Source of the DNA: a virus
Reading direction: 5' to 3' (one strand)
DNA: 64,000 bases
IMG/VR virus record: IMGVR_UViG_3300028388_004019
Coordinates: 64,001 to 128,000 of that record
Position numbers and translations under genes: made by a program. The notes beneath the pieces were generated by a model. The model was not told the DNA's origin and searched no databases. It worked only from the letters and a program-made list of their open reading frames with translations. Shown piece after piece: positions 1-42,750 of this stretch; position 1 is the first letter of the stretch; the number at the start of each line of letters is the position of its first letter.

Positions 1-3000
1 CACTGTTTGTGTCGGGGTAATTGTAGCAGTTGGAGTAACTGAAGATGTTGGAGTGACTGATGATGTCGGAGTATTAGTCGGAGTGACCTCAGGCGTTGAA
101 GATGCCGTCACAGTCTGTGTAGGGGTAAATGTTGGAGTAACCGTGGCAGTTACAGTCGGTGTAATACTTGCAGTCGGTGTTACCGACGCAGTAACAGTTT
201 GAGTGACAGAGGCAGTTGGAGTAACCGACGCAGTAGATGTCACCGTTTGTGTTGGTGTATATGTCGGAGTAACTGAAGGTGTCGGTGTTACCGACGCAGT
301 TGGTGTTGGTGTTGGAGTCGGAGCAATGAATATAACCTCAACGGGACATGTACACGCACTCGTATTAACATCAGTAATACCCCAAGTACTAATAGTCTCA
401 CCCGGAGGTAAAATGGAATTAAAATTATATTCAATTTGATGTTCATTAACCGGCATCGTTCTCACACCTGAATATGTGAATCCTGAACTACCTGTCATGA
501 AACCTGATATCTCATAATCACATAGTGATTCTGCAGGGTCCGTTAATGCAGCATCATTCCAAAGATTAATTCTAATCTTATCACCCTGGACAATGTAACC
601 AGCAATATACTGTGTTGTCTGTGGACATGTTGCCGATGGAGTTACCGTCTGTGTTGGAGTAATCGATGCAGTTGGAGTAATTGATGATGTCGGCGTTACA
701 GATGCAGTCGGGGTAACCGTTTGAGTAACTGAGGCGGTTGGTGTAACACTTGCAGTCACTGTTTGTGTCGGAGTAATTGTTGCGGTTGGCGTTACTGACG
801 ATGTTGGTGTTACAGAAGATGTTGGCGTATTAGTTGGAGTCACTGCAGGAGTTGAAGATGCAGTAACCGTTTGTGTCGGGGTAAATGTCGGAGTGACCGT
901 GGCAGTTACCGTTGGTGTTATTGATGCAGTAGGGGTAAACGTAGGTGTTACGGTCGCAGTTACTGACGGGGTAATAGATGCCGTAGGTGTTACTGATGCA
1001 GTTGGTGTAACAGAACTTGTAGGTGTATTAGTTGGAGTAACAGTATTAGATGGTGTTACGGTATTGGTCGGAGTCACACTTGCGGTTGGTGTGACAGAAG
1101 ATGTTGGAGTATTAGTTGGTGTAACTGCAGGGGTTGAAGAAGCAGTTACTGTTTGTGTCGGAGTAACCGTCGCAGTCCTTGTAGGTGTAACCGTTGGCGT
1201 TACTGATGATGTAGGTGTAAATGTCGGGGTAACAGTTGCGGTTCTTGTCGGCGTTACCGATGGAGTAACTGTTGATGTTGCAGTTACAGACGGAGTCGGA
1301 GTAACACTTGCGGTTGGTGTTACCGATGATGTCGGAGTGTTTGTAGGAGTAACACTCGAAGTTGGTGTAACTGAAGAAGTCGGCGTATTTGTTGGAGTTA
1401 CAGTATTAGAAGGGGTAACCGTATTTGTTGGAGTCACACTCGCAGTTGGAGTAACCGACGATGTCGGTGTATTTGTGGGTGTTACCTGAGCAGTCTGTGT
1501 AGGTGTATGTGTTGGTGTTACAGTAGATGTCGCAGTTACCGATGGTGTTGGAGTAACAGATGAAGTTGGAGTTACAGAAGCAGTAGGAGTATTTGTAGGT
1601 GTTACCGTATTAGTTGGAGTAACCGATGCGGTTGGTGTTACTGATGATGTTGGTGTATTTGTCGGAGTAACACTTGCCGTTGGGGTGACAGTAGAAGTCG
1701 CAGTAACCGAAGGTGTTGGTGTATTTGATGAAGTCGGTGTATTAGTTGGAGTTACCGCTGCCGTTTGTGATGGTGTCACAGATGCAGTTGGAGTATATGT
1801 TGGAGTAACAGTCGCAGTCCTTGTTGGCGTAACAGTTGGAGTAACTGAAGACGTTGGTGTAAATGTTGGTGTAACCGTATTAGATGGAGTAACAGTATTC
1901 GATGGTGTAACTGATGATGTAGGAGTATTTGTAGGTGTAACCGTATTAGATGGAGTAACAGTATTCGATGGTGTAACTGATGATGTAGGAGTATTTGTAG
2001 GGGTAACAGTATTTGACGGAGTTACAGTATTTGTTGGAGTATACGAAGGTGTTACCGTATTTGTTGGGGTAACCGATGCAGTTGGCGTAACTGAACTGGT
2101 TGGTGTATTCGTAGGCGTAACAGTATTTGTTGGAGTATACGAAGGTGTTACCGTATTTGTTGGGGTAACCGATGCAGTTGGCGTAGCAGTTCTTGTCGGT
2201 GTCCTTGTAGGACTTACCGATATCGAAGGAGTAACTGAAGGAGTAACCGTCGCGGTTCTGGTCGGTGTTCTAGTAGGACTTACTGAAATAGAAGGCGTAA
2301 CCGTTGCAGTTCTCGTAGGGGTCCTTGTAGGTGTTCTAGTAGGACTAACCGAAATAGAAGGCGTAACCGTTGCAGTTCTGGTCGGTGTACGTGTTGGTGT
2401 TGGTGTAGGTGATGGACATGACGGACACTCCCCATAACCACAAATACTCTCAATCCAGTTTGGTGCAGGTATAAATAAATCAGGAATACCAGTACTCGTA
2501 GATGTTATCTGATAACACGCATTATTACCAAATGGATTAATAACACCATCACCCTGAAATAATACCGTACCTGATGTTGTTGACGCAATGAAAGTATCAT
2601 TAGAGTCACAACAATTAACCATTAAATACTTATCAACAGCTGGTGTTGAAGTCGGTGTCGGAGTACGAGTTGGAGTACTCGTTGGAGTTCTTGTTGGAGT
2701 TCTTGTTGGTGTACGAGTTGGTGTCGGTGGTATTGTCGTAGGTGTAGGAGTAGGTGTCGGCGTTACAGGTGTGTCACCACAACATTCTGTACATGTTTGA
2801 TATGCAGTTGCACTACAAGTCTCCACAGGTTCACAATCAGGAACAATACCTTCAACAAAGTAACAACAACCATCACAGTTATCTAACTTAACAACTTGAC
2901 CAGCATTTGGACATGGACTTATATTAAGGGATACAAATTGACCAGAGTATTGATAGTTACATGTTCCACAAGCTTCTGGGTCAATATCAATACAAGGGAT

Positions 3001-3774
3001 AAGGAATGCACAACAGGTTTGATTAAGATTCATTATATCATAACCAACACCAGGTTCCATACCAGGTTCATAAGGTGTTGGAGTACCCTCACCCTCACAT
3101 TCTTCACAATTATTAAATGTCTGTACTACACTACCAATAAAACTAATATTAGCTTCTGAACAATTTTCAGCACATGAACCTGACCTGAAAACCTCCCAAC
3201 AAACATTAATATTATCAACAAAAGCCTGACCTACTTGAAGATTATAAACATTTTGTATACAGGCAACAGAACTTCTCGTCCTACAATCTCTAATACAAAC
3301 ATAACCTACATTGTGAACAATATACCCATCTAAGATATAGTAATTAGGACCACTAAGAGAAAGGTTATAGATTGGGTCGAAAGAATATACAATCTCTTTG
3401 GATTCAACAGGTTCGTGAATAACCTCACCGTCAACCATTTTAACCATATCGTATTCACCCCCAACAACTAAACTTATGGTGGAAACAAATTGATATTTTT
3501 CTTTGGTTTTGTGGTACGCTAATACGTGTTCATCAATAACACCCAACCCATTAATCTGAAGGTAATTACCCGATTCTTCTAATATCTCGGTAACCTCAGG
3601 AGATTGGACATTATCAACATTAATGGTAGGAAATTGGACCTCACGGAAGTCAACGCCGTTAACAATTTCAGGTATATCAAAAGAAAACAGTTGGTCCCCT
3701 AATTGAATATCTTCAATATTCTTTACGGAACCATCTGATAATAATACTTTCTGTCCTAACTTATAACCTGCCAT
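1..3774 (-). CDS. Large Hint-domain, Cys-rich, Thr/Pro-repeat (mucin-like) protein; 3'-partial, >1258 aa, absent from the supplied ORF track
   Basis: Translated by hand from ATG at 3774: MAGYKLGQKVLLSDGSVKNIEDIQLGDQLFSF...GVIDEHVL...IYNLSLSGPNYYILDGYIVHN|VGYVCIRDC..., then Cys-rich modules, long TPT/SVTP tracts and a globular domain (~330-630). No stop in the segments translated; the frame is open at base 1. TATTTATA motif 18 nt upstream. Confidence 0.9.
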   Translation of the reverse strand, partial: MAGYKLGQKVLLSDGSVKNIEDIQLGDQLFSFDIPEIVNGVDFREVQFPTINVDNVQSPEVTEILEESGNYLQINGLGVIDEHVLAYHKTKEKYQFVSTISLVVGGEYDMVKMVDGEVIHEPVESKEIVYSFDPIYNLSLSGPNYYILDGYIVHNVGYVCIRDCRTRSSVACIQNVYNLQVGQAFVDNINVCWEVFRSGSCAENCSEANISFIGSVVQTFNNCEECEGEGTPTPYEPGMEPGVGYDIMNLNQTCCAFLIPCIDIDPEACGTCNYQYSGQFVSLNISPCPNAGQVVKLDNCDGCCYFVEGIVPDCEPVETCSATAYQTCTECCGDTPVTPTPTPTPTTIPPTPTRTPTRTPTRTPTSTPTRTPTPTSTPAVDKYLMVNCCDSNDTFIASTTSGTVLFQGDGVINPFGNNACYQITSTSTGIPDLFIPAPNWIESICGYGECPSCPSPTPTPTRTPTRTATVTPSISVSPTRTPTRTPTRTATVTPSISVSPTRTPTRTATVTPSVTPSISVSPTRTPTRTATPTASVTPTNTVTPSYTPTNTVTPTNTPTSSVTPTASVTPTNTVTPSYTPTNTVTPSNTVTPTNTPTSSVTPSNTVTPSNTVTPTNTPTSSVTPSNTVTPSNTVTPTFTPTSSVTPTVTPTRTATVTPTYTPTASVTPSQTAAVTPTNTPTSSNTPTPSVTATSTVTPTASVTPTNTPTSSVTPTASVTPTNTVTPTNTPTASVTPTSSVTPTPSVTATSTVTPTHTPTQTAQVTPTNTPTSSVTPTASVTPTNTVTPSNTVTPTNTPTSSVTPTSSVTPTNTPTSSVTPTASVTPTPSVTATSTVTPSVTPTRTATVTPTFTPTSSVTPTVTPTRTATVTPTQTVTASSTPAVTPTNTPTSSVTPTASVTPTNTVTPSNTVTPTNTPTSSVTPTASVTPTASITPSVTATVTPTFTPTASITPTVTATVTPTFTPTQTVTASSTPAVTPTNTPTSSVTPTSSVTPTATITPTQTVTASVTPTASVTQTVTPTASVTPTSSITPTASITPTQTVTPSATCPQTTQYIAGYIVQGDKIRINLWNDAALTDPAESLCDYEISGFMTGSSGFTYSGVRTMPVNEHQIEYNFNSILPPGETISTWGITDVNTSACTCPVEVIFIAPTPTPTPTASVTPTPSVTPTYTPTQTVTSTASVTPTASVTQTVTASVTPTASITPTVTATVTPTFTPTQTVTASSTPEVTPTNTPTSSVTPTSSVTPTATITPTQTV
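1868..1999. repeat. Exact 66-bp tandem duplication inside the Thr/Pro tract
   Basis: 1868-1933 is identical to 1934-1999 (ggtgtaaccgtattagatgg...aggagtatttgta). Confidence 0.9.
2024..2185. repeat. Exact 66-bp direct repeat, offset 96 bp
   Basis: 2024-2089 is identical to 2120-2185 (acagtatttgttggagtatacgaagg...gcagttggcgta). Confidence 0.85.
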
Positions 3775-3792
3775 TTACTGATACACTTAACC

Positions 3793-3820: not shown

Positions 3821-6181
3821 TCAGGATTCTTTCCTCAAACTTCCGTCGTAATGGTCAAATCTATCGTGTTCAGTCGGACTTAATAACAAGATACCTGGTT
3901 TAATGTTACCCTTGATTGTTTCTTGGAACATATAAGACATCCAAGTTTGCTCATAAGGACGAGCCCATTTCTCCGTTAAGAACATCTTTTCATTACCGTA
4001 TTTCGATACAATCTGAGGCCAGTTACAGTAATAAATCTCACCATGTGCAAATGGTATTCCTTGGAATGTGTCTATTTTAGTGATTTTAGTTTTTGGTGCG
4101 TTAGGGTCCAATCCTTGAACAGGTAGATTTGGTTTTTCTGGCCAATGTTCTTCCCTAATATGTTGTGGAACATTATACCACGCCCATTGAACCGTATTGT
4201 CACCATAAAATTCTGTATAAGATAACTTTAAGAAATCAAAGTTGTTTTTCTTTGCAATTTTTAATGAGTTTCTGTATAGATTCTTCACATATCTGTTGAA
4301 TCCATTCTTACAAACCTCACCTTGTTTTGGATAGAAGAACATATCATCTTCAAAGAAGAAATAATAATCAAATCCTCTCTCCTCAGCATCCTCAGCAACC
4401 CACTGACGACCACCACAAATACCTAAGTTGTCTTTCTTAACATAAATCATATTATATTCTTTTGCCAACTCTTCATATTCAGGTGATGTCGATAAATCTG
4501 TTGAATTATCTAAGACAACCCATTGAGGTTTCGTCACAAAATCCTCATCATATTGTTTCATCGACTCAATCAATGTTTTTATCTGATTTGGACTATTAAA
4601 TGTAATAACATATAAACCTACATTGGTAATATCTAAATCATTTTTGATTACCTCAAACCTCATCTCATCCATCGGTTTGTGTCTATCCTGTTTGACATCC
4701 TCAAAGAACTTATTAATCAACCCATTCCCTTCGATTGGGAAGTATTGGTAGTTCTCAGGGTATCTATATAACAATAAGGTAAATAGAGACTCCTCAGTAC
4801 CCATATAACCCTGATTAAGGGTGGATTTCATAATACCGTAATACTCATTATTAAAATCAGCAATATCTTCAATAGGACCACCAAAGAACCCACCACGACA
4901 AACTTTATTGACTTTAGCATTTGCAATCTCATTCATCTTATTAATCTCGAAACCGTGAATCTCAGTATTCGATTCATAAGGGAACGCAATGAAAGTCATC
5001 TTATCAATCTTTGTCAACTTATCCAATACTCTATCATGTGTAAAGTAACCTGAATGTACGGTATTAGTAATACCAGCATCCAACCAGAATAAGTGTGTTG
5101 AACCAAACTTATCCATAATCTTAGCATCGTGTAACAAATATGGTTTTGACATCACCAATGGATTGTACATATCCAATCTACCTTGAGTAGATTCTGATAA
5201 CCATCCCACCTGATTTTGCCATTCAGGGTTTGTACGAATGTTTTGAATTGGTTCATAGAATTCTCCTTTGAACCACTCTTGGCTACGACTGATGAACTGT
5301 GTTGTCTCATCTGACCTTCTCTCCATAACAAAATCCCTTAATTCCTCATCACCAAATACAATCATGTTGTAAGGTATCTTAAGAATTTCATCAAATTTTT
5401 TTAAATAATGTTCAAAACTACGTGACCAACCTTCCGCTAATTCATCACGTTTAATGTTCCATAACCCTGTTACTATAGTAATTCCGTTGTTTTCCATTTC
5501 TCCGTAAAGTTCTTTATAAATGTATTTTTTTATTCCGACGATATCTCCGCCCTCAAGACCATAAACATAATCATGTTGGTCAAATTTTTGAATGATATTT
5601 TGTTGGTCTTCTTCTTCCAAACTTCCCCACTCTATTCTAACAATCTTTGGTGAATGTCTTTCAAAATCAATTTGTTTGAAGATAACATAGTCATGACCTT
5701 CAGCATCAATTTTAATAACATCATAATCAATGATTTCATGCTTATTTAATAATGAATCTAAGGTGATTGTTGGAACCTTAATTCTCACTCCATATTTTTC
5801 TACAGTATCTCTATCACCTTCACTAGCCAAACCATTTTTTGGTGGATATATTGCACTCATACCCATAAAACAATGGTGGATATCTTTATTTTCAATAGCA
5901 AAAGGATTGATGGTTAACATTTCAACCTCACCATTTTTATCAGACACCGCAGAGTTTTCAAACTTATGTTTGTCACCCAAATTCTTCACCAGTTTATGAA
6001 AGTAATAAGGAATCGGTTCCACATATAAACCTGTGAAATCATATGCGTTGGTATACCCGATTAATTCATCAAATGTTTGTCCGTCCATCGCACCAATATT
6101 AAGTGTAAACAATTTATGTCCTTGTTTACCCAAATGGTGAAGTGCGTGATTGAAATAATCTGTTTTTTCTAATTGAATCAT
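3821..6181 (-). CDS. Three-domain fusion: FkbM-family methyltransferase + HtrL/YibB(WlaTC)-type glycosyltransferase + GT-A (GT2-like) glycosyltransferase, 786 aa
   Basis: N-term LNIGAMDG..GLYVEP..TLDSLL..VIKIDAEGHD (FkbM); middle TIVTGLWNIKR..FWLDAG..RGGFFGG..MGTEESLF (HtrL); C-term YVITFNSP..VLDNS..NLGICGGRQ..YFFFEDD (GT-A). Confidence 0.75.
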   Translation of the reverse strand: MIQLEKTDYFNHALHHLGKQGHKLFTLNIGAMDGQTFDELIGYTNAYDFTGLYVEPIPYYFHKLVKNLGDKHKFENSAVSDKNGEVEMLTINPFAIENKDIHHCFMGMSAIYPPKNGLASEGDRDTVEKYGVRIKVPTITLDSLLNKHEIIDYDVIKIDAEGHDYVIFKQIDFERHSPKIVRIEWGSLEEEDQQNIIQKFDQHDYVYGLEGGDIVGIKKYIYKELYGEMENNGITIVTGLWNIKRDELAEGWSRSFEHYLKKFDEILKIPYNMIVFGDEELRDFVMERRSDETTQFISRSQEWFKGEFYEPIQNIRTNPEWQNQVGWLSESTQGRLDMYNPLVMSKPYLLHDAKIMDKFGSTHLFWLDAGITNTVHSGYFTHDRVLDKLTKIDKMTFIAFPYESNTEIHGFEINKMNEIANAKVNKVCRGGFFGGPIEDIADFNNEYYGIMKSTLNQGYMGTEESLFTLLLYRYPENYQYFPIEGNGLINKFFEDVKQDRHKPMDEMRFEVIKNDLDITNVGLYVITFNSPNQIKTLIESMKQYDEDFVTKPQWVVLDNSTDLSTSPEYEELAKEYNMIYVKKDNLGICGGRQWVAEDAEERGFDYYFFFEDDMFFYPKQGEVCKNGFNRYVKNLYRNSLKIAKKNNFDFLKLSYTEFYGDNTVQWAWYNVPQHIREEHWPEKPNLPVQGLDPNAPKTKITKIDTFQGIPFAHGEIYYCNWPQIVSKYGNEKMFLTEKWARPYEQTWMSYMFQETIKGNIKPGILLLSPTEHDRFDHYDGSLRKES

Positions 6182-6363
6182 TAACTAATTACAATAAAGT
6201 TTTTCTGCCACCCTTTATACTCAGTCCAAGTCTTACCCAAAAGTTCCGCAGTTTCAACTGCAAAATTGTATTCGTCTTCTCTGTATGTATCATCCATAAT
6301 AATTGGTACTGAAGTGTCCAATCCCTTTAACTTAGGGAAAATATAATTCAAAACTATATTCAT
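6181..6363 (-). CDS. 60-aa ORF resembling the isolated C-terminal end of a class I SAM methyltransferase (possible remnant)
   Basis: IIMDDTYREDE resembles the IVLDDxxRxxE end of Methyltransf_24-type enzymes. Coupled to its neighbours by ATGA and TAATG overlaps. No SAM-binding motif I. Confidence 0.4.
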   Translation of the reverse strand: MNIVLNYIFPKLKGLDTSVPIIMDDTYREDEYNFAVETAELLGKTWTEYKGWQKNFIVIS

Positions 6364-7238
6364 AATTGTTCAAAGAATTTGTAGAAGCTGATTTTACCCT
6401 CCAAAAATTCAGGTGTGACCGATTTATCAGTTAAGTTTGAGTCATCGTGGTACCACGTATTAAACTTAAAACTATTATAATTTTCAGGTTTGTCATAAAC
6501 CATTGTAGACATCATCGCCTCATGGTTCAAAAGAAACTCCTTATCCAAACACACCTGAGCGTAATTCTCAAACCTTTCAAAAAAGTCGGGTAACTTACTC
6601 ACATGACCACCAATAATACCACCAATAGATAAAGAATCATAGTTGTGGTCTTTCTCCAAAATATCATTCAATTTTCTGTGGTCGTGGAAGAATAATGTGT
6701 TTCTAATATCAATTAATCTATCACCGACCCAATTATTGATTTTGTTAAATAATAAAGTATTGAAAATACCATCGTAAGTATACCGATATTTATTCACAGA
6801 TAATCCAGTAATTTTATCAGCATTTGAGTTATACCGTCTCGGATATAAACCAAGATGTGATAATCCACAATCTATCCAATATAGATAATCAATCCCTTCT
6901 TCCATCTCATCTTCCATCAAAGCAATTTTAGCCCATCCGACTTCCAAATAAAATTTGAATTTATCAGGATTTTTTTCTTTAATTTCAATCATCTTTTTAC
7001 TATGACGAATATCTTCAAGTTCTTTGACTTTAATTGTTACATTATCTACCTGATTTTCATCCATATAGTTTTGTAACGCTTCTGCCGTGTTAGAACCTGT
7101 ATAACAAACAATCGGTAAACCCATTTCAGATAGTTGAACCAATGAATTGATGTACCTATCCCAACGAGCTTGAACCTTATGACCAAAGAAAGGGAAATCA
7201 CCCAAACCAAAATATAAAAAAGTTACTAATTTTGTCAT
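6360..7238 (-). CDS. HtrL/YibB (WlaTC)-type putative glycosyltransferase, 292 aa
   Basis: TKLVTFLY..PIVCYT..AKIALM..YLYWIDCGLSH..GGIIGG..NHEAMM; same architecture as the middle domain of 3821..6181. Confidence 0.65.
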   Translation of the reverse strand: MTKLVTFLYFGLGDFPFFGHKVQARWDRYINSLVQLSEMGLPIVCYTGSNTAEALQNYMDENQVDNVTIKVKELEDIRHSKKMIEIKEKNPDKFKFYLEVGWAKIALMEDEMEEGIDYLYWIDCGLSHLGLYPRRYNSNADKITGLSVNKYRYTYDGIFNTLLFNKINNWVGDRLIDIRNTLFFHDHRKLNDILEKDHNYDSLSIGGIIGGHVSKLPDFFERFENYAQVCLDKEFLLNHEAMMSTMVYDKPENYNSFKFNTWYHDDSNLTDKSVTPEFLEGKISFYKFFEQL

Positions 7239-8806
7239 TTTCTAAAGTAATAATCCTCTAATAAGAGACAATCCATTTCTGTTTTATCATAGACTTTTAA
7301 AGCATCTGAGTATCTTGAAAGAATAGGTTTACCGTTCACATTGAATGATGTATTTAATAAAACACCAATTCCTGATTTCTCTTCAAACTCAGTCAATAGG
7401 TTATACAACCAAGGATTTTGTTCTTCTGTAACTGTCTGAACTCGAGCAGTACCATCAACATGAGTAATCGAAACTAATTGCTCTCTCCACTCTTCTCTTA
7501 CCGTTGGACAAAAACTCATCCATCTACTCTCACCTTCGAAATCAAAGTATTTTTCAACATCTTCTAATTTACAAACTGGTGCAAATGGTCTGTACCATTC
7601 TCTATTTTTAACCTTCGCATTTAGAATATCTTTCATATCAGGATACGCTGGATTACAAATGATACTACGATTACCTAAAGCTCTCGGTCCATGTTCTGAC
7701 GTACCTCTTACAACACCAACAATTTTTCCATTGGATAAATCATCAGTCAAACTATCCATAGTCAACTCACGTCCTCGTCTTTCTTCAACGTGAGACATTA
7801 ATGTATGTCTGTCGAGAATCGGTACACCAGCATAAGTCACGTCAACCGCAGTTGCTGGTTTCATATGATTCAAAATCATACCAGTTGCAATACCACAGTC
7901 ATTTGGGTTAGGTGGAACAAACACAGGACGGTCTAATATCTGTTGTAGTTTGGTATTAAGAAGTATGTTAAGAGCACATCCACCAACTGTAATCAACGGG
8001 ATATCAGGATATTCATCCAAGAATGGTTGAGCCATCTCCATGAAAACATTTTCGAAGGCAATTTGTGAAGTTTTAGCAACGTCCCATCCTGTTTGTCCTG
8101 TAAATCGGTTATTCATATCGAAAACCAATCCTGTTTGTTCACCTAATTCACCCAAAAAATCGATATAGTTCAAACCATCGGGTTTTCTTCTATAGTAATT
8201 TTCGAAGTGTGGTAACCAATCTTCATTTACCTCACCATAAGAACATAGTCCCATGATTTTACCAGAATATACTAAGTTACCAATATTTAATGCGGGTTCC
8301 TTACGAATATCACCCAAATAATCACCAAATGACATATAAGGGAAACCTAAATCTAAATTATATTTGTCCAATAAGGTTATAGTTTCTCTATCAGACGCAT
8401 GATATACATTGAAGAAACCGTCATTACCACCTCCATCGAAAGAGATTATCAACGCTTCATTATAATCAGTCTGATATAAACCACAAGCCGCGTGACTCAA
8501 ATGGTGAAGACAGTTGATATGTTCTTTAGCAGGAATAAGTTTTTCATAGTGAACCTTAGTTCCACTTTCTAAAGTATCTGAGTTCAAGTAATAACACTTT
8601 TCATACTCAGAAATACCATATTCATCTTCGATAAATTTCAAGATATGTTTAAGTAGATAAGGTCTTGTATATGAAACCAAATACTGAGCATAACCAGCAT
8701 TCTTTTCACTCAAAAATCTTTCTACTTCAATTACTGTAATTAATTCTCCATTCTCCTCAACCGCAACCGCCGCGTTGTGAGAACCATAAAACGCAATATT
8801 CGCCAT
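7235..8806 (-). CDS. O-carbamoyltransferase, NodU/CmcH/TobZ family, 523 aa
   Basis: HHLSHA, SFDGGG, GKIMGL, GGCALN, PNDCG, GPRALGNRSI, KVKNREWYRPFAP, HVDGTARVQTV, LLNTSFN. Confidence 0.92.
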   Translation of the reverse strand: MANIAFYGSHNAAVAVEENGELITVIEVERFLSEKNAGYAQYLVSYTRPYLLKHILKFIEDEYGISEYEKCYYLNSDTLESGTKVHYEKLIPAKEHINCLHHLSHAACGLYQTDYNEALIISFDGGGNDGFFNVYHASDRETITLLDKYNLDLGFPYMSFGDYLGDIRKEPALNIGNLVYSGKIMGLCSYGEVNEDWLPHFENYYRRKPDGLNYIDFLGELGEQTGLVFDMNNRFTGQTGWDVAKTSQIAFENVFMEMAQPFLDEYPDIPLITVGGCALNILLNTKLQQILDRPVFVPPNPNDCGIATGMILNHMKPATAVDVTYAGVPILDRHTLMSHVEERRGRELTMDSLTDDLSNGKIVGVVRGTSEHGPRALGNRSIICNPAYPDMKDILNAKVKNREWYRPFAPVCKLEDVEKYFDFEGESRWMSFCPTVREEWREQLVSITHVDGTARVQTVTEEQNPWLYNLLTEFEEKSGIGVLLNTSFNVNGKPILSRYSDALKVYDKTEMDCLLLEDYYFRK

Positions 8807-10074
8807 TATAATGTACCTGTTAGTCTATCACACCATCCTTTTGAAGTTGAATAAGGCCAAACAACCCAATAAGCTGGTTTTTCAGTTATGTTAAATTGTC
8901 TCCAAACTTTACAGTAACCGTCAGGGTCATTCATCATACGGTCAATCTCTGCTCTGTCTGCATCCTTTCTGTAAATAGTGTTATCTTCCTTATCGTGGAA
9001 AGCAACAACCCAATATTCATAATCTTTCTCAGGAACTTGCTCATAACCAACATCAATACAATGTTTGTAAATAGTCGCAAAACTCTCCAACCATTCTTCT
9101 TTCGACACATATGAATCAATACCTGGGTTCGGTGGGTAGTTTTTATCTAAAGTGTATTGTTGTACACCTCTTTTACTGAATTTCAAACCTGAAAACTCTT
9201 CATATTCTTCCAAAGACCTCGTTGGACCAAACCCGTATTTACCTTCGTGACCTTCTTGAGATTCACCATCCATACCAAATAATTTTCTATTTGTTAAGTG
9301 TGAAGTATTGTTTTTACTGACCCAATCTTTATCATCATCCCATTGTTTAGTTCTACCTTTACGAGTATATTCGTGCCAAATCAAAACTTTGTGTGGATGG
9401 AACATATCATATCCCCATGTAAACGCTCTCGCCGCGATTGAAATCTCTTCCCCGTGGAAGTAGTACTCAGGATTGTGTTGAACCTCATTACTGAATTCAC
9501 CCAATGTGAAGCAGAAATGTGCCGAGTAAAATCTTGCAGGAACAGGTGTATCCAATTCTCTCCAACCTGGTATAGTCTCAGGTAAAAAGAATACCGCACC
9601 TTCAGGAATGAAACGGTCAAAGACCATTCTCCACGGTTCTTGCACTCTCGCCGCTGGGTCATTATCAGGGTCAAATGATGAAACATAACCTGTCAATAAA
9701 GGTTTCGGAATACCCATACCTTGTAAATCTTTGACCATCTTAATCATCTCCACGTCCCAATTTTTCTCAAATCTCATGTGTGAATCAATCTGTAATGTAT
9801 ACATTTCCCCGTCATACATCTGTTGAATCTGATTTCTTGCCCAACAGGCACCTTTAGACTCTTCATAAGGAACATCCATTATTCTGAATCTCTCATCATC
9901 ACGGTACTTGTCAAGGTTATCAAATCCATCTTCAGGATGGTATTGTCTACAAATCCCCAATATAACATTTTGGGGTCTTTTTGCGTTTTTTAACATATCT
10001 TCTATAGTTGGGACCAACTCAGGGTCTCGATATGACGCAATCTGTACGAAAATTTTCTGTGCTCTTCTTGCCAT
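8806..10074 (-). CDS. GT60-like (Gnt1/OGNT, GlcNAc-transferase) glycosyltransferase with an extra ~90-aa C-terminal domain, 422 aa
   Basis: IFVQIASYRDPEL..GACWARN..YTLQIDSHMRF..NWD..FYSAHFCF..YFHGEEISIAARAFTWGYD..HEYTR. Start moved to ATG 10074. Confidence 0.8.
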   Translation of the reverse strand: MARRAQKIFVQIASYRDPELVPTIEDMLKNAKRPQNVILGICRQYHPEDGFDNLDKYRDDERFRIMDVPYEESKGACWARNQIQQMYDGEMYTLQIDSHMRFEKNWDVEMIKMVKDLQGMGIPKPLLTGYVSSFDPDNDPAARVQEPWRMVFDRFIPEGAVFFLPETIPGWRELDTPVPARFYSAHFCFTLGEFSNEVQHNPEYYFHGEEISIAARAFTWGYDMFHPHKVLIWHEYTRKGRTKQWDDDKDWVSKNNTSHLTNRKLFGMDGESQEGHEGKYGFGPTRSLEEYEEFSGLKFSKRGVQQYTLDKNYPPNPGIDSYVSKEEWLESFATIYKHCIDVGYEQVPEKDYEYWVVAFHDKEDNTIYRKDADRAEIDRMMNDPDGYCKVWRQFNITEKPAYWVVWPYSTSKGWCDRLTGTL

Positions 10075-10088
10075 AATTTTAATGTTTG

Positions 10089-10102
10089 TAATAAGAATAA
10101 TC
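10089..10102 (-). promoter_or_regulatory. Putative second-class (early/middle) promoter element GATTATTCTTATTA
   Basis: 12/14 identical to GACTATACTTATTA upstream of the SSB gene (51183-51196). Confidence 0.35.
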
Positions 10103-10125
10103 AAAGATTATTTAAGATAAAGTGA

Positions 10126-10354: not shown

Positions 10355-13300
10355 TTATTGTTGTGTATATTCAACTTCAATCTTATCAACATCAATTCTT
10401 TCCGCCTGAATAAAGTAGTAACAGTCAATCTTATTACTGAATAGGTTACCATTCTGAATATATACCACCCAATCCTTAATCTCTTTAACATATAAGTTTT
10501 GGTGTGAACCTACTGAGGTCAACTGAACAGTAATTGAATCAGGGTCAACCAAATCCTTCCAATATTCAGGAAGTTCGATTTCCTTATCATTCAATTGTCT
10601 ACCTCTAATATAGATACCGTGTTCAGGACCCTCCAAGTTACCATGCTTCAACCTCATACCCTGTTCTTTCTTCTCAGAGTTCGGGTGTGGAATGTCGAAG
10701 GCTTTGGATGTTGCCATTAAGTTTCCTTGACCGTCTACACTAAATACTCTTGCTCCACCCGCCTCATAACCTGAAACAAGGAATGTATTTGGGTCTGATG
10801 AATCCAATTCTAATACATTATCATAAGTTTCGTCGGCTTCAATCATAACTCTTGTTAAACTTCTGTTAGCCTGTGTAGTTTTTCTAAATTTCGTATTAGC
10901 CGCTCCTGTAGTTTTGAATTCTAAATTATTACCGTTTTGTGTAACTGTTCTGGCTGCCGATAAAGTTCCATCAGAACTATAGATATTCGTATTACCTGCG
11001 GAAGTTATATATCCAGCATCATTATTAAATCCACTGTTATTAATGTTACCTTTGGTAAGTTTCTTTTGATTGTTTGATGAATCAACCACCACAAAGAAAT
11101 CACCATCATCATTCGAAGTCGATGTAGTCAATTCAGATAAATCAACAGAGATAGTATCAGCGGCGACATCAATACCTGTACCAGCACCTACGTTTAGAGT
11201 TATAGAACTACCCAAAGAAACAGAACCACCGTTAGTAAGACCATTTCCTGCGAAAACCGTAAGTGAAGAATTTGCCAATGAAGAGTTAGGTACATTAGAT
11301 AATCCTAAGGCTATCGTACCACTTGTTGTAATTGGTGACCCTGAATCCACATCTATACCATCAGACCCTGAGATTGCTACTGAGGTCACAGTACCACTCG
11401 AATTCGTATATGGTAAGTCAGATATCAAACCTTTCTTAACATTATTGTCCGTGGCATCGTGATAGATGATAGTATCAGTAAGTGCAATGCCTGTACCTTC
11501 TAAATCCGTTGCAGAATTTATAAAGTTATTAGTACCCGAGTAATCTAATCCAACAGTATTAGCCGCTACAGAAACACCCGTACCTGCACCTACATTTAAG
11601 GTTGTCGAACCACCCAATGAAACAGAACCACCGTTAGTAAGACCATTTCCTGCGGTTACCGTAAGTGAAGAATTTGCAAGTTTCGCATTGGTTACATTAG
11701 CATCTGTAATCTTTACAGTAGTTACTGCATTTGTGGCTAATTCAGCGGTATTGACGACACCCGCATCAATCGAAGCATTTAATTGTACGTCCGTAGAACC
11801 ATCGAAGGAAATTGCTGATGCGGTAATATCACCTGTAATCGAGAAGTTTCTCGGTGCTTCTAAGGTTGTTGCGGTTCCAGCATTACCATCAAGATTTCCT
11901 TGTACATCACCTGTAAGTGGACCAGTTATGGAGTTGAAAGATACATCATCACCCGTGGCTACTGATTGGTCTTGACCACCCAAATATCCCCATTGTGCTG
12001 CTGATATCGTAGTTGTACCGATATTTGCTAATTGAGTAGCCTCTGCCGATGTCATTGAAACACCTTGAATCTTAGTGACTGTACCGTTTAATGAAACGTT
12101 ACCAGTACCATCGAAAGATACATTGGATGCCGTAACATCTCCAGTAATTGAAAAGTTTCTTGCAGTCTCAAGTGCTGTCGCGGTGTCCGCATTTCCAGTG
12201 ACATCACCTGTCACATTACCAGTAACATTACCAGTAACATTACCTGTAAGGTTACCACTGAAGGCTGTAGATGTAACCGAAGTGAGACCTGCGAGTGTTG
12301 TTGAGGACGCACCTAAATCAATACTTGTACTACCAATAGTCACACTGTCATTTGATAAAGCACTATTTGGAATGTTTGACCAAAAACCTGTAATATCTTG
12401 TGCTGAAGAACCATCATTCAACCCTAAAGAGAGACTTCCTGAAGTGAAGGTTCCACCTGTTACATATGTATTAACGGAATTACCTACTGTTAAATCAATC
12501 GTATCTGTTCCTGAATTACCCACAATGGTTACAGTACTGTCAGAAGACGTAAAGTTCAGAGTACCACCCAATGGTACAACAGGGTCAGAACCTGAAGGTG
12601 CATTCACAGTAAATGACGAATTTGAAAGTGAAGAATTAGGTACATTTGATAAACCTAAGGCTATTGTACCGTTTGTCGTAATCGGCGAACCTGAATCAAC
12701 ATCAATACCATCTGAACCTGAAATTGCTACCGAAGTTACAGTACCTTGATTATTTGAAAACGGTAAAGCTAAAACATCATAATATAATACATTGTTAGAT
12801 GCATTACTAACAGGTATGTGCCATGATGTTTGTATGTCACCAGTACCTGCTCCTGAGGCTAAAATATAATTGTCTGTTCCTGCGTAGTCGAGAGCTACAT
12901 CATTCGTGTTTACTACGATACCAGTACCCGCACCCACATTCAATGTAGTTGAACCACCTAAGGAAACTGAACCTCCATTGGCTAAACCATTACCAGCACT
13001 TACCGTAAGTGAAGAATTTGCAAGTTGAGAATTAGTTATCTGTCCATTACTTACATCAGCAATGATGTCATCACCAGTAATTTGACCACCTAATGAGATG
13101 TCAGAACCCGCAATATCAATCGATGAATTAGCTAATGAAGTATTTGGAACATTAGATAAACCTAAAGTAATTGTTCCACTTGTTGTTATTGGTGAACCTG
13201 AATCAACGTCAATACCATCAGTACCACTAATAGCTACTGAAGTAACTGTACCTGAGTTATTAGAGAATGGTAAATCAGAAATTAAACCTTTCTTAACATT

Positions 13301-13744
13301 ATTATCTGTAGCATCGTGGTAAACAATAGTATCAGAAGTTGCGATTGAAGTTCCTTCTAAGTTAGTTGCCGAGTCAATAAAGTTGTTTGTTCCCGAATAA
13401 TCAAGAGCCACATCATTAGCGTTTACAACTATACCTGTTCCTGCACCAACGTTAAGTGTTACAGAACCGCCTAAAGAAACTGAACCTCCGTTCGCTAAAC
13501 CTGAACCCGCAGTCACTGTAAGTGAAGAATTGTCTAAAGATGCGTTTGGAATAGTGCCGAAAGAGAGAGCGCCCGAACCATTAGTCAATAATACCTCATC
13601 AGCAGACCCATCTGAAGTTGGGAATGTATATGCTGAATTAAATTCTATAACACCACCCGTTGAAATGTTGATACGGGTAGTCGTATTTGTTCTAAGATTC
13701 AATCCTGAACTATTACTATAATAAACTCCGTTATGGTTTGCCAT
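10355..13744 (-). CDS. Tail fibre-like protein with internal repeats and a C-terminal chaperone-like domain, 1129 aa
   Basis: Gly/Ser/Thr-rich repeats NSSLTV.AG.GL.NGGSVSLG (x4) and VTSVAISG.DGIDVDSGSPITT.GTI.LGLSNVPN (x3); C-term KAFDIPHP..LKHGNLEGPE..RG..IELPEYWKDLV..ITVQLT. Confidence 0.8.
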   Translation of the reverse strand: MANHNGVYYSNSSGLNLRTNTTTRINISTGGVIEFNSAYTFPTSDGSADEVLLTNGSGALSFGTIPNASLDNSSLTVTAGSGLANGGSVSLGGSVTLNVGAGTGIVVNANDVALDYSGTNNFIDSATNLEGTSIATSDTIVYHDATDNNVKKGLISDLPFSNNSGTVTSVAISGTDGIDVDSGSPITTSGTITLGLSNVPNTSLANSSIDIAGSDISLGGQITGDDIIADVSNGQITNSQLANSSLTVSAGNGLANGGSVSLGGSTTLNVGAGTGIVVNTNDVALDYAGTDNYILASGAGTGDIQTSWHIPVSNASNNVLYYDVLALPFSNNQGTVTSVAISGSDGIDVDSGSPITTNGTIALGLSNVPNSSLSNSSFTVNAPSGSDPVVPLGGTLNFTSSDSTVTIVGNSGTDTIDLTVGNSVNTYVTGGTFTSGSLSLGLNDGSSAQDITGFWSNIPNSALSNDSVTIGSTSIDLGASSTTLAGLTSVTSTAFSGNLTGNVTGNVTGNVTGDVTGNADTATALETARNFSITGDVTASNVSFDGTGNVSLNGTVTKIQGVSMTSAEATQLANIGTTTISAAQWGYLGGQDQSVATGDDVSFNSITGPLTGDVQGNLDGNAGTATTLEAPRNFSITGDITASAISFDGSTDVQLNASIDAGVVNTAELATNAVTTVKITDANVTNAKLANSSLTVTAGNGLTNGGSVSLGGSTTLNVGAGTGVSVAANTVGLDYSGTNNFINSATDLEGTGIALTDTIIYHDATDNNVKKGLISDLPYTNSSGTVTSVAISGSDGIDVDSGSPITTSGTIALGLSNVPNSSLANSSLTVFAGNGLTNGGSVSLGSSITLNVGAGTGIDVAADTISVDLSELTTSTSNDDGDFFVVVDSSNNQKKLTKGNINNSGFNNDAGYITSAGNTNIYSSDGTLSAARTVTQNGNNLEFKTTGAANTKFRKTTQANRSLTRVMIEADETYDNVLELDSSDPNTFLVSGYEAGGARVFSVDGQGNLMATSKAFDIPHPNSEKKEQGMRLKHGNLEGPEHGIYIRGRQLNDKEIELPEYWKDLVDPDSITVQLTSVGSHQNLYVKEIKDWVVYIQNGNLFSNKIDCYYFIQAERIDVDKIEVEYTQQ

Positions 13745-13780
13745 TTTATATGTTTTCTCTTTCTTTTATTTTTTGGCTAT

Positions 13781-13800
13781 GGGGGAGGGTTAACTCCCCC
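13781..13800 (-). promoter_or_regulatory. GC-rich hairpin in the predicted 5' leader of the 1129-aa fibre gene
   Basis: GGGGGAG-6 nt-CTCCCCC lies between the TATTTAT motif (13815-13821) and ATG 13744; no U-tract on either strand. Confidence 0.5.
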
Positions 13801-13814
13801 AATCATATCTAATG

Positions 13815-13821
13815 ATAAATA
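13815..13821 (-). promoter_or_regulatory. TATTTAT motif
   Basis: ataaata on + strand in the intergenic gap. Confidence 0.6.
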
Positions 13822-13848
13822 CTTTTCAAATAATTTATAGTGTATAAA

Positions 13849-40905: not shown

Positions 40906-42744
40906 TTATTTGTAATCGACGTTTTTAAGGTTTTTAACTCTGACCTTAATATCTTTCTCAGGGAATCTTACTTGGTAAATCTGTGAAGGTTCCGCAAAAA
41001 TGGTTTCATCAATTAATTGAATTTCTTTCGTGTCGTCGTCCGAATATCTTTGTGATGTTTCAGCTGAAGAATATTGACCCCCAACTTTATTGTAAACTTT
41101 TAATTCAGTAATTGAAATCACACCAGCAACATTTTGAATGATTTGTTTCAGTTGAGATACAAAAATGTTTTCACCCATGGACCTATCTGTTGGTGTCATA
41201 TATTTTGATACCTCATCTATAATTTTAGTTATGACCGTTCCTTGATTCTGACCTGAATCTAATACTACAGATAAATCATATTCCAAATCAATAACTTGAC
41301 CAACATTCACTGAGATGTAGTCGTTAATCATTCTATATTTTGATAGGTAGTTAGCGATATTTTGTTTCAATGTGTTTGATACTGTCTGAGTCAAACTACC
41401 GTTTGCATCATAAGATAAGACATTGATGTTAATCTTATTATCTTTTTCGGTGATTGCTGTCTTTGCAGGTGCACCGTATTTTCCAGGCATCTTTCTAACC
41501 AAGGCGTTATAATCATTGATGGTCACCGCTCTATTTTGAGAAGCGAAGTTAAATGTCACCATATTCCTTGCCTCTTCTATAGACGGTTGATTAGCCCCAC
41601 CAATAGCCGCAGTCACATTATTGACCGTCAACGAATTGATTACAGTTTGATTATTTGTATTCGAAGGACCATTTACAAAAAAGTTTACCGTCCCCACTTG
41701 GTTGATTGCATTAACTCCAATGTTAGACGCCGTTCCACCACCAACTCTATACTTAACGAATAATGTAGTATTTGCTTTTACAGTCCTACCCAATCCAATA
41801 TTATTTTGATAATCTTGTATTCTTAATGATACCCCATTTCTTGCAAATTCAGCAAGTTGGTCGTCAGGTGTTGTTGTTCCACCACCAAACTGTACTTTCA
41901 TAAATCCTTGAGGGGTGTATTCAGTGATGAATCTTTCCTCAGTATCTATGTATTTACCAACTTTGATACCTGGTAAATCTGAAGGTTTTGTAGTGTCCTC
42001 AACAAAAACTGTACTCTCAGCTAAAGAATCAACCTCATACCATCTGTCTTGAGCATTAACAAATTCAGAATATGTCGGTGTTGACTGAAAAGAAGTACCG
42101 TCTTTTTGAATGATATCTACAACTTCTAATACATTCTGTTCTGGTAAGAAAAACTCAAAAAATGGTTTTACATCATTTGGATTTATAGTCTTCTTGAATA
42201 CTTTGGTAAGTCCGTTGACTACTACTTCTCTCTTAGTAATAGTGTAATTTATTAATACATTATTGGAGTCGAAATTTGGAATTTTAGTCCTGTTTGGAAA
42301 ACCCTCATTATTATATTGTGAAGCAAAATCAATATCATATACATTTTCGAATACTTGACCCGCACCAATAACTTGGGAACCTGCTCTTAAGATACCCAAG
42401 TACCTCGAATCTTCTTGGTCACCCAATGCCGGTACTGTAATAGAAAAATCAACAATCGCAACAGATGGTCTGTTACCAGGTATCTTTAGACCATAAGTTC
42501 TTGCAATGTTAAATATAGATGAACGTTGTTGTGCATATTGAAGTACAGTTTCTTGAATACTTCTGTCAATATGGTAATTGAGATTATCACCAATTGCTGC
42601 GTTCAAATCCATGAGTACAGAATATACAGCAGCATCATTGAAGTTATCGATTAATTCAGGGTAATATTGTCTCGTATAGTTTACGAGGTCCTGTCTTAAA
42701 CCTTCAAAGTCTCTTTCTGTATATGAAATCTTCTTACTCGCCAT
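40906..42744 (-). CDS. Baseplate wedge subunit, T4 gp6/baseplate J-like, 612 aa
   Basis: YTERDFEGLRQDLVNY..FNDAAVYSVLMDLNAAIGD.L.Y.ID..IQE..L..A..R.S; YRVGGG..SN; FASQNRAVTINDY. Confidence 0.88.
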   Translation of the reverse strand: MASKKISYTERDFEGLRQDLVNYTRQYYPELIDNFNDAAVYSVLMDLNAAIGDNLNYHIDRSIQETVLQYAQQRSSIFNIARTYGLKIPGNRPSVAIVDFSITVPALGDQEDSRYLGILRAGSQVIGAGQVFENVYDIDFASQYNNEGFPNRTKIPNFDSNNVLINYTITKREVVVNGLTKVFKKTINPNDVKPFFEFFLPEQNVLEVVDIIQKDGTSFQSTPTYSEFVNAQDRWYEVDSLAESTVFVEDTTKPSDLPGIKVGKYIDTEERFITEYTPQGFMKVQFGGGTTTPDDQLAEFARNGVSLRIQDYQNNIGLGRTVKANTTLFVKYRVGGGTASNIGVNAINQVGTVNFFVNGPSNTNNQTVINSLTVNNVTAAIGGANQPSIEEARNMVTFNFASQNRAVTINDYNALVRKMPGKYGAPAKTAITEKDNKININVLSYDANGSLTQTVSNTLKQNIANYLSKYRMINDYISVNVGQVIDLEYDLSVVLDSGQNQGTVITKIIDEVSKYMTPTDRSMGENIFVSQLKQIIQNVAGVISITELKVYNKVGGQYSSAETSQRYSDDDTKEIQLIDETIFAEPSQIYQVRFPEKDIKVRVKNLKNVDYK

Positions 42745-42750
42745 CTACTA

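What the first reader, a model, noticed from the sequence alone, without database searches (positions are those of the whole stretch)
3310..3774. Hint domain at the extreme N-terminus of a mucin-like protein, configured for C-terminal self-cleavage only
Seen: residues 1-155 of an ORF missing from the track match Hint blocks A (GYKLGQKVLLSDGSVKNIEDIQLGDQ), B (VIDEH), F (IYNL) and G (YIVHN). The position-1 Cys is replaced by Gly, the block B Thr is lost, there is no N-extein, and the residue after His-Asn is Val rather than Cys/Ser/Thr. Established: Asn cyclisation alone releases the C-terminal partner, as in C1-mutant inteins and bacterial intein-like domains. Inference: this is a self-removing N-terminal pro-domain (folding chaperone, assembly timer or targeting tag) that exposes a new N-terminus (V156) on a Cys-rich, Thr/Pro-rich virion protein. 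This is the reverse of the usual C-terminal chaperone placement.
Basis: partly seen in the sequence, partly recalled or inferred. Interest (0 to 1): 0.8.

Follow-up and report, generated by a model that had tools for sequence, protein, structure and literature searches.

The report
Cysteine-less Hint domain heading phage protein
A giant threonine/proline-rich protein of an uncultured marine jumbo phage starts with an intein-like (Hint) domain that has lost the residues for cutting at its front end but strictly keeps the His-Asn pair for cutting at its back end, so it is probably a natural self-removing N-terminal tag, though no cleavage has been measured.

Summary
Window 3310-3774 (minus strand) encodes residues 1-155 of a 3120-aa protein. 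An in-frame TAA lies directly before the ATG.

The domain is a true Hint fold:
- phmmer finds 169 Hint/BIL-type proteins.
- hhalign against an independent BIL profile gives 99.6% probability, E 6.6e-25.
- The AlphaFold model has pLDDT 87, and Foldseek puts BIL domains, inteins and the hedgehog Hint domain on top.

The nearest relatives are type A bacterial intein-like (BIL) domains, which have Cys1, a C-terminal His-Asn and no +1 nucleophile.

I compared 33 distinct homologous domains, 27-99% identical, all at the very start of 2000-3100-aa Thr/Pro-rich phage proteins:
- Gly replaces Cys1 in 33/33.
- His-Asn is kept in 33/33, with synonymous codon changes.
- The block B Thr is never present, and the block B His is present in only 4/33.
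- The +1 residue varies (V, I, D, F, S, L).

This fits a domain that can only cleave at its C-terminus by Asn cyclisation. It is not an intein, and it is not a canonical BIL domain.

Cleavage itself, the virion location and the purpose of the domain remain inferences. The block F His is also missing. An uncleaved structural Hint domain remains a serious rival.

The scan had noted this same stretch from another window.

The parts
3310..3774 (-). Hint (BIL type A-like) domain, residues 1-155 of the 3120-aa protein
   Evidence: ORF and translation. phmmer, Pfam of hits, hhalign, AF2 and Foldseek. An independent BIL profile gives E 5e-31.
3775..3777 (-). In-frame TAA stop directly upstream of the ATG at 3772-3774; no N-extein is possible
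   Evidence: Sequence read. Homologous loci have a stop 0-5 codons upstream.
3766..3768 (-). Gly3 codon, at the position of the Hint Cys1 nucleophile
   Evidence: Aligned to Cys1 of PI-SceI and of BIL relatives. Gly in 33/33 family members, using GGT, GGA and GGC.
3526..3537 (-). Degenerate block B (I80-D-E-H83) in place of T-x-x-H
   Evidence: hhalign column match to the BIL V-T-x-E-H motif. In the family, Thr is never present and His occurs in 4/33. Thr and His are invariant in the Cys1-bearing relatives.
3310..3315 (-). His154-Asn155, the block G dipeptide; the proposed scissile bond is N155|V156
   Evidence: Invariant in 33/33 distinct homologs, with CAT/CAC and AAT/AAC codons.
3307..3309 (-). 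Val156, the +1 residue (not a nucleophile)
   Evidence: The family has V22, I5, D2, F2, S1 and L1 at +1.
2770..3309 (-). Cys-rich module (residues 156-335) that follows the Hint domain. Together with the Hint domain, it is the only part conserved across all homologs.
   Evidence: blastp of full-length homologs: residues 1-334 are 70% identical to G001, 1-332 are 33% to G002, and 1-226 are 32% to G003. Nothing else is shared by all.
1..2769 (-). Thr/Pro/Ser repeat tracts with small Cys-containing globular inserts. The gene continues past the window start to residue 3120 (G000:C1 about 58412).
   Evidence: Full translation from L003.
3821..10104 (-). Upstream co-directional glycosylation-type genes: an FkbM methyltransferase + HtrL_YibB fusion, carbamoyltransferase and a GlcNAc-transferase-like gene. 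This is context, not part of the Hint domain.
   Evidence: Pfam. Pfam on the syntenic locus L001. The HtrL_YibB gene is also directly upstream in the 28%-identical L020.

Best explanation
Residues 1-155 are a genuine Hint-fold domain descended from type A bacterial intein-like (BIL) domains. It has been moved to the very start of a giant Thr/Pro-repeat protein of a marine jumbo phage. The protein is probably a glycosylated fibre.

The domain has lost the machinery for the N-terminal acyl shift. Cys1 is now Gly, the block B Thr and His have decayed, there is no N-extein, and the domain contains no Cys. It keeps the C-terminal His-Asn under strict purifying selection.

The most likely mechanism is a single-turnover asparagine-lyase reaction:
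1. The domain folds.
2. The Asn155 side chain attacks its own peptide carbonyl and forms a succinimide.
3. The N155|V156 bond breaks.
4. The 17-kDa domain is released, and the mature protein begins at V156 of the conserved Cys-rich module.

What is shown: the fold, the homology, the placement at the start of the protein, and the conservation pattern.

What is inferred: that cleavage happens, and why. My preferred purpose is a folding- or assembly-dependent pro-domain that unmasks the conserved N-terminal module, which may be the virion-attachment end of a fibre.
For: Fold and homology:
- 169 phmmer hits. Eight of the ten scanned hits carry strong Pfam Hint, PT-HINT, Vint or Intein_splicing matches.
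- hhalign of the family profile against a BIL-only profile: 99.6% probability, E 6.6e-25 over residues 4-161.
- The BIL-only profile hits the window at E 5e-31.
- AF2 pLDDT 87. Foldseek's top hits are BIL2 6y75, C. thermocellum BIL 2lwy, inteins and hedgehog 1at0, at E 2e-7 to 1e-5 and TM 0.62-0.74.

No N-extein:
- TAA lies directly upstream.
- Stops lie 0-5 codons upstream in 7 viral and 48 metagenomic loci.

Selective retention across 33 distinct domains, 27-99% identical:
- Gly3 33/33.
- His154 33/33 and Asn155 33/33, each with synonymous codon variation.
- +1 residue variable (V, I, D, F, S, L).
- Block B Thr 0/33 and block B His 4/33.
- Six of the last eight domain positions are invariant, against 22 of 155 overall.

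The Cys1-bearing relatives keep Thr and His invariant.

Established knowledge: type A BILs have Cys1 and His-Asn, lack a +1 nucleophile, and cleave at the C-terminus by Asn cyclisation. [quoted passage not shown]

Architecture: the Hint domain plus the following Cys-rich module (residues 1-335) is the only region conserved across 2034-3120-aa homologs.
Against: - No direct evidence of cleavage: no proteomics and no expression data.
- The block F His (F:13), which is proposed to activate the Asn, is absent. It is N144 here and varies in the relatives.
- The block B His is also lost. In some inteins its mutation drastically reduces C-terminal cleavage as well, and in some inteins C-terminal cleavage occurs only after the N-terminal steps (PMC4031507).
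- The last beta-strand is the best-conserved block in all HN-type Hint domains. Part of its conservation is therefore structural.
- A +1 Val or Ile is beta-branched and may slow cyclisation. This is from my recollection and was not tested.
- A profile of the family alone does not reach solved inteins (best E 0.49), so the domain is divergent.
Confidence: 0.55

Rival explanations
1. This is a non-catalytic Hint domain that is retained on the protein. The fold has been co-opted as a structural, docking or binding module at the N-terminal end of the fibre, for example for attachment to the virion. It stays on the mature protein. His-Asn and the terminal strands are conserved for packing or for a binding surface, not for chemistry.
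For: - Three to four of the usual catalytic residues are gone: Cys1, block B Thr, block B His and block F His.
- N-terminal parts of phage fibres are usually the conserved virion-attachment ends. Residues 1-335 are the only part conserved across homologs.
- Non-catalytic Hint-like folds exist: the AXH domain of ataxin-1 appears among profile hits.
- The invariant G-Y/F-K-x-G-Q at the N-terminus has no known catalytic meaning.
Against: - The two residues kept without exception are exactly the pair that defines Asn-cyclisation-competent Hint domains.
- They sit exactly at the domain boundary.
- The residue after them varies freely. This is the pattern of a scissile site rather than of a packed interface.
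- The linker after N155 is predicted to be disordered (pLDDT below 50 for residues 158-165).
Confidence: 0.33
2. Cleavage occurs, but the released Hint domain is itself the functional product, a small protein made stoichiometrically with the fibre. It is not a disposable pro-domain.
For: The surface of the domain carries family-specific invariant residues outside the catalytic blocks: K5, Q8, I20, E21, P35, N75 and E121. The domain is about 25 residues larger than mini-inteins, with an insertion at residues 33-60 that is modelled with lower confidence.
Against: No evidence for any partner or activity. Most of those positions are also conserved in ordinary BIL relatives (consensus).
Confidence: 0.07
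3. The result is an artefact. Either the start is mis-called and a Cys1-bearing N-extein lies upstream, or the similarity is due to chance or low complexity.
For: Two apparently headless 155-aa Hint proteins in the databases (P0059, P0128) turned out to be truncated gene calls, with Cys1 in the open frame upstream. Such artefacts therefore do occur.
Against: - Here an in-frame TAA directly precedes the ATG.
- All 55 related loci have a stop 0-5 codons upstream and the same M-x-G-Y/F-K start.
- The homology statistics are very strong.
Confidence: 0.01

Closest known systems
Type A bacterial intein-like (BIL) domains (Amitai et al. 2003; Dassa et al. 2004; structure 2lwy; Pfam PT-HINT/Hint/Hint_2-type hits)
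   Same: Hint fold. C-terminal His-Asn. No nucleophile at +1. Found in non-conserved, hypervariable extracellular-type proteins. They are the best sequence and structure matches. C-terminal cleavage is by Asn cyclisation (PMC4031507).
   Different: BILs begin with Cys and keep the block B T-x-x-H (invariant). They sit inside proteins, often in tandem, and cleave at both ends or splice. This domain has Gly1, a decayed block B and no N-extein, and it is the first thing translated.
Inteins (class 1-3), and engineered C1A/C1G mini-intein self-cleaving tags (for example the Ssp DnaB and Mtu RecA delta-I-CM systems; own knowledge)
   Same: Hint fold and the block G His-Asn. Engineered N-terminal intein tags without Cys1 release a C-terminal passenger by Asn cyclisation alone. 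That is exactly the reaction proposed here.
   Different: This is not a mobile element in a conserved host protein. It has no exteins to ligate, no +1 Cys/Ser/Thr and no block F Cys or His. It is conserved as an integral part of one phage protein family. The engineered tags are artificial, whereas this would be a natural counterpart.
C-terminal intramolecular chaperone / Peptidase_S74 domains of phage tailspikes and fibres (endosialidase, T5 L-shaped fibre; own knowledge)
   Same: A self-cleaving accessory domain on a phage fibre protein that is removed after folding or assembly.
   Different: Those sit at the C-terminus, use a Ser-Lys dyad and have an unrelated fold. Here the domain is N-terminal, has a Hint fold and uses Asn-lyase chemistry. 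No S74 hit was seen.
Hedgehog/Hog Hint domains and C-terminal Hint domains on phage proteins (for example L013, L015, L016)
   Same: A Hint fold used for one-sided autoprocessing of a larger protein (Foldseek hits 1at0 and 6tyy).
   Different: Those sit C-terminal to the cargo, need Cys1 and cleave at their N-terminal junction. L013, L015 and L016 carry Cys1 and end ...V-H-N-K-stop. Here the polarity is reversed.
Asparagine peptide lyases of viral capsid maturation (nodavirus, tetravirus, reovirus coat proteins; MEROPS N families; own knowledge)
   Same: Single-turnover Asn-cyclisation cleavage used to mature a virion protein.
   Different: The folds are unrelated, and cleavage there depends on capsid assembly. 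No homology.

Membership tests
HINT superfamily (fold) | Horseshoe-like all-beta Hint fold with adjacent N- and C-termini | tested here: met
   AF2 pLDDT 87, pTM 0.83. Foldseek probability 1.00 to BIL, intein and hedgehog structures, TM 0.62-0.74. hhalign 99.6%.
Intein | N-terminal nucleophile (Cys/Ser/Thr at position 1), or a class 2/3 substitute (Cys at +1 or at block F:4) | tested here: not met
   Gly at position 1 in 33/33. No Cys anywhere in residues 1-155. F:4 is Asn or Ser.
Intein | Cys/Ser/Thr at +1 of the C-extein | tested here: not met
   +1 is Val here. The family has V22, I5, D2, F2, S1, L1.
Intein | Inserted between two exteins of a host protein that are ligated | tested here: not met
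   An in-frame stop directly precedes the ATG. Only Met-Ala comes before the domain.
Intein / type A BIL | Block G His-Asn at the C-terminal junction | tested here: met
   H154-N155 invariant in 33/33.
Type A BIL | Cys (or Ser) at position 1 forming a thioester | tested here: not met
   Gly3 aligns to Cys1 of about 60 BIL-type relatives.
Type A BIL | Block B T-x-x-H | tested here: not met
   I-D-E-H here. In the family Thr is 0/33 and His is 4/33, while both are invariant in the Cys1-bearing relatives.
Type A BIL | No nucleophile at +1 | tested here: met
Type A BIL | Demonstrated autocleavage or splicing | not testable with these tools
   Needs expression and a protein assay.
Hedgehog/Hog-Hint | C-terminal placement, Cys1, no His-Asn, cleavage at the N-terminal junction | tested here: not met
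   The domain is at the N-terminus, has Gly1 and keeps His-Asn.
Peptidase_S74 intramolecular chaperone | Pfam S74 domain with a Ser-Lys dyad at the C-terminus of a fibre | tested here: not met
   No such Pfam hit in the N-terminal 490 aa or in the six non-repeat segments scanned.

The most novel reading that the evidence does not exclude
The domain does more than remove itself. In the type A BIL splicing route, the alpha-amine freed by Asn cyclisation attacks a thioester. By analogy, the alpha-amine of V156, or the succinimide-ended Hint fragment, could go on to form a covalent bond with another virion component. That would make this a one-shot protein-ligation device that staples a glycosylated fibre to the particle. 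The evidence does not exclude this. However, no second Hint domain, which would be the obvious thioester donor, exists in the 99%-complete 297-kb relative.
Probability: 0.04. Interest if true: 0.9.

Novelty: new variant of a known kind. Interest (0 to 1): 0.66.

Why it matters
If cleavage is confirmed, this would be a natural counterpart of the engineered Cys1-less intein tags used in protein purification. It would be a Hint domain that evolution has reduced to a one-sided, C-terminal-only asparagine lyase and placed at the very start of a protein.

It would add a fourth way of using Hint domains, beside inteins, BILs and hedgehog-type domains.

It would also show that Asn cyclisation can run without Cys1, the block B Thr and His, and the block F His. 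That bears on the open question of how the intein steps are coupled.

It would reveal a new maturation step for the giant mucin-like proteins of marine jumbo phages.

A domain that works in this stripped-down form and tolerates V, I, D, F, S or L at +1 could also be a useful self-cleaving tag.

If the domain turns out not to cleave, it is a clean example of a Hint fold co-opted as a structural module.

Tried and rejected
- Pfam on the domain alone gave only sub-threshold hits.
- phmmer of the single sequence against the PDB gave E about 1.
- A profile of the family alone against the PDB gave E 0.49. A link to solved structures needed the intermediate BIL relatives or the fold.
- The first AF2 run, with a shallow nine-sequence alignment, failed (pLDDT 45). 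The 36-sequence alignment worked.
- megablast and tblastn against GenBank phages found nothing for the gene.
- Two apparently stand-alone Cys-less Hint proteins (P0059, P0128) were rejected as precedents, because their frames are open upstream and contain Cys1.
- The idea of a partner Hint domain as thioester donor was rejected. There is only one Hint domain in this 184-kb record and one in a 99%-complete 297-kb relative.
- Pfam on six non-repeat segments of the C-terminal 2960 residues gave nothing significant. That includes the segment with a D-S-S-G-S motif that looked like a vWA MIDAS site.
- The ESM Atlas search with the Cys-rich module gave only unnamed viral clusters, with scores below 0.9.
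- Literature searches for an N-terminal, Cys-less Hint domain or for phage asparagine lyases of the Hint type found no precedent. That library is incomplete, so this is not proof of novelty.

Full report
**What is there**

On the minus strand an ORF starts at window 3774 (ATG) and runs off the window start. In the full virus record it is 3120 aa. That record is G000, 183,755 bp and about 60% complete; the window is 64001-128000 of it.

Residues 1-155 (window 3310-3774) read M-A-G-Y-K-L-G-Q-K-V-L-L-S-D-G-S... and end ...L-D-G-Y-I-V-H-N, followed by V-G-Y-V-C-I. An in-frame TAA lies directly before the ATG, and the preceding gene ends 46 nt upstream. So nothing but Met-Ala precedes the domain. 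The domain contains no cysteine, whereas the next 180 residues contain more than 20.

**Is it a Hint domain?**

Pfam alone is not convincing: Hom_end_hint E 0.0019 and Intein_splicing E 0.094, both far below their cut-offs. The single sequence against the PDB gives E about 1, although the alignment to PI-SceI already puts G3 on Cys1.

The stronger tests are decisive.
- phmmer against 1.84 billion representatives gives 169 hits at E<=1e-3 and 15 at E<=1e-10.
- I scanned ten of the hits with Pfam. Eight have strong PT-HINT, Hint, Vint, Hom_end_hint or Intein_splicing matches, many as tandem domains. The two without a hit are members of the query's own family.
- In about 60 full-length domain alignments, nearly all relatives begin C-F-x-x-G-T and end L-V-H-N, followed by K, A, G or another non-nucleophile. 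That is the type A BIL pattern.
- A profile of the query's own family (A3) aligned to a profile made only of those BIL-type relatives (A4) gives hhalign probability 99.6%, E 6.6e-25, over residues 4-161.
- The A4 profile alone finds window 3295-3756 at E 5e-31, and it is the only match in the record.
- With a 36-sequence alignment, AlphaFold2 gives pLDDT 87 and pTM 0.83.
- Foldseek against the PDB ranks Tetrahymena BIL2 (6y75, 6tmm), the Clostridium thermocellum BIL (2lwy), several inteins and the hedgehog autoprocessing domain (1at0, 6tyy) on top. E values are 2e-7 to 1e-5 and TM-scores 0.62-0.74.

The fold and the homology are therefore established.

**The family and the survey of catalytic positions**

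The same architecture recurs in 7 IMG/VR contigs of up to 297 kb and in 48 marine metagenome contigs. It also occurs in a 28%-identical contig, L020.

Every one of these starts M-(A/V/S/I)-G-(Y/F)-K, with a stop 0-5 codons upstream. Every one that reaches the end of the domain has G-Y-(I/V)-V-H-N, followed by a Cys-rich module and long Thr/Pro/Ser repeats.

I collapsed these to 33 distinct domains with pairwise identity of 27-99% (median 37%). The counts are below.

| Position | State in the 33 domains |
|---|---|
| Cys1 position (Gly3) | Gly 33/33; codons GGT, GGA, GGC |
| His154 | His 33/33; codons CAT, CAC |
| Asn155 | Asn 33/33; codons AAT, AAC |
| +1 residue | V22, I5, D2, F2, S1, L1 |
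| Block B Thr position (I80) | I, R, N, K or G; never Thr |
| Block B His position (H83) | His in only 4/33; otherwise E, N, Y or P |

- Only 22 of the 155 positions are invariant, yet 6 of the last 8 are.
- In the Cys1-bearing relatives the block B Thr and His are invariant.
- The block F His (F:13) aligns to N144 here and is not conserved in the family. It also varies among the BIL relatives.

So the residues that serve the N-terminal junction have been lost and have drifted. The dipeptide that defines Asn cyclisation has been held fixed across deep divergence, next to a freely varying +1 residue. This is the pattern expected of a site where only the Asn-side chemistry matters.

**Mechanism proposed**

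This part is inferred. From established intein and BIL chemistry, Asn cyclisation at block G breaks the peptide bond to +1 without needing a +1 nucleophile. It can run uncoupled from the N-terminal steps, as 'off-pathway C-terminal cleavage', and type A BILs use it (PMC4031507).

Here nothing else is chemically possible. There is no thiol or hydroxyl at position 1, no N-extein and no +1 nucleophile, so there can be no splicing and no N-terminal cleavage.

The proposed steps are:
1. The domain folds.
2. Asn155 cyclises.
3. The 17-kDa Hint domain leaves with a C-terminal succinimide.
4. The mature protein starts at V156.

Across 2034-3120-aa homologs, the only region shared by all is residues 1-335, that is the Hint domain plus the Cys-rich module. 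The repeats and the distal globular inserts differ between homologs. This is the usual layout of phage fibres, with a conserved proximal end and a variable distal end.

The gene lies at the end of a same-strand run of genes:
- baseplate wedge genes at 40906-43215;
- tail fibre and minor tail genes at 10355-16806;
- a glycosylation-type operon at 3821-10104.

I therefore favour a pro-domain that masks or helps fold the conserved proximal module until the protein is folded or assembled. Location in the virion and the purpose of the domain are inference only.

**Reasons for caution**

- The block F His, thought to activate the Asn, is missing.
- The block B His is missing too, and its mutation lowers C-terminal cleavage in some inteins. 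Some inteins cleave at the C-terminus only after the N-terminal steps.
- The last strand is conserved in all HN-type Hint domains partly for structural reasons.
- A retained, non-catalytic Hint module therefore remains a serious rival. I give it about one in three.
- The mis-called-start artefact is excluded here. It does explain two database 'stand-alone' Hint proteins that at first looked like precedents.
- A trans-ligation role would need a thioester donor. No second Hint domain exists in this record or in a 99%-complete 297-kb relative.

**Comparison with what is known**

- By sequence and fold this is a derived offshoot of type A BIL domains. It fails the defining tests for an intein (position 1 nucleophile, +1 nucleophile, two exteins) and for a canonical BIL (Cys1, block B T-x-x-H). 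It meets the Hint-fold and His-Asn tests.
- Functionally it would work like engineered Cys1-less mini-intein cleavage tags.
- It would play a role analogous, but opposite in polarity, to two known cases. One is the C-terminal S74 intramolecular chaperones of phage fibres. The other is C-terminal Hint domains such as hedgehog, or the phage proteins in L013, L015 and L016, which carry Cys1 and end ...V-H-N-K-stop.
- Literature searches of the held library found no description of a natural N-terminal, Cys-less Hint domain. The library is incomplete.

**Verdict**

The 'C-terminal cleavage only' configuration is well supported by comparative data. Cleavage, purpose and virion location are untested.
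- Novelty: a new variant of a known kind.
- Interest: about 0.66.

The scan had noted this same stretch from another window.

Noticed in passing
window 3821-10104 (-): A co-directional operon of glycosylation-type genes lies directly upstream of the Thr/Pro-repeat gene. It comprises an FkbM methyltransferase + HtrL_YibB + weak TAGT-like fusion, an HtrL-like gene, a carbamoyltransferase and a GlcNAc-transferase (PF11397) homolog. An HtrL_YibB gene also sits directly upstream of the Hint gene in the 28%-identical locus L020. Earlier notes of this scan already cover this operon.
   Followed up: partly
L017:1-586 and L018:1885-2505: Two database 'stand-alone' 155-aa Hint proteins (P0059, P0128) are truncated gene calls. 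The frame is open upstream, to a contig end or a run of N, and contains the Cys1 (G-G-C|M-V-E-G..., G-Y-G-C|L-A-Y-G...). In L017 the upstream part is an F-F-P-P repeat. Both genes are followed by several 2OG-Fe(II) oxygenase (PF13640, prolyl-hydroxylase-like) genes.
   Followed up: partly
L013, L015, L016 (match at 6001-6426): Phage contigs encode proteins of about 1335 aa that end in a conventional Cys1-bearing Hint domain, terminating ...V-V-H-N-K-stop. This is the opposite polarity to the window's domain.
   Followed up: no
G000:C1 about 58412-67774 (L003), residues 2694-2916 of the 3120-aa protein: A roughly 220-aa non-repeat segment contains I-Y-Y-D-S-S-G-S-M-D, which looks like a vWA MIDAS motif. 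Pfam gave no hit, so this is unverified. The segment is absent from the three full-length homologs compared.
   Followed up: partly
L001:10001-10840 versus L084 (G001:C1:89000-96800): In a 296,683-bp JGI contig the homolog is called as only 279 aa (P0002). In the near-identical 297,164-bp IMG/VR record the frame is open for 2499 aa. In L020 the Hint ORF and the repeat ORF overlap out of frame (3645-3682). Repeat-rich genes of this family are often broken by assembly or gene calling.
   Followed up: partly
window 10355-16806 (-) and 40906-43215 (-): Tail fibre and minor tail PHROG hits (1129-aa and 985-aa proteins) and baseplate wedge subunits. The nearest cultured relatives of the baseplate protein are only about 27% identical (Flavobacterium phage immuto, Microcystis phage Mel-JY01, and an uncultured 484-kb phage). 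The host is unknown.
   Followed up: partly
window 2770-3309 (-) and residues 1047-1150 and 2526-2606 of the full protein: The Cys-rich module after the Hint domain has conserved Cys at 160, 164 and 172 (C-I-x-x-C...A-C-I-Q/N-N). Two further small globular inserts are shared only with the closest relative G001, at 74% and 58% identity. No family was assigned by Pfam or the ESM Atlas.
   Followed up: partly
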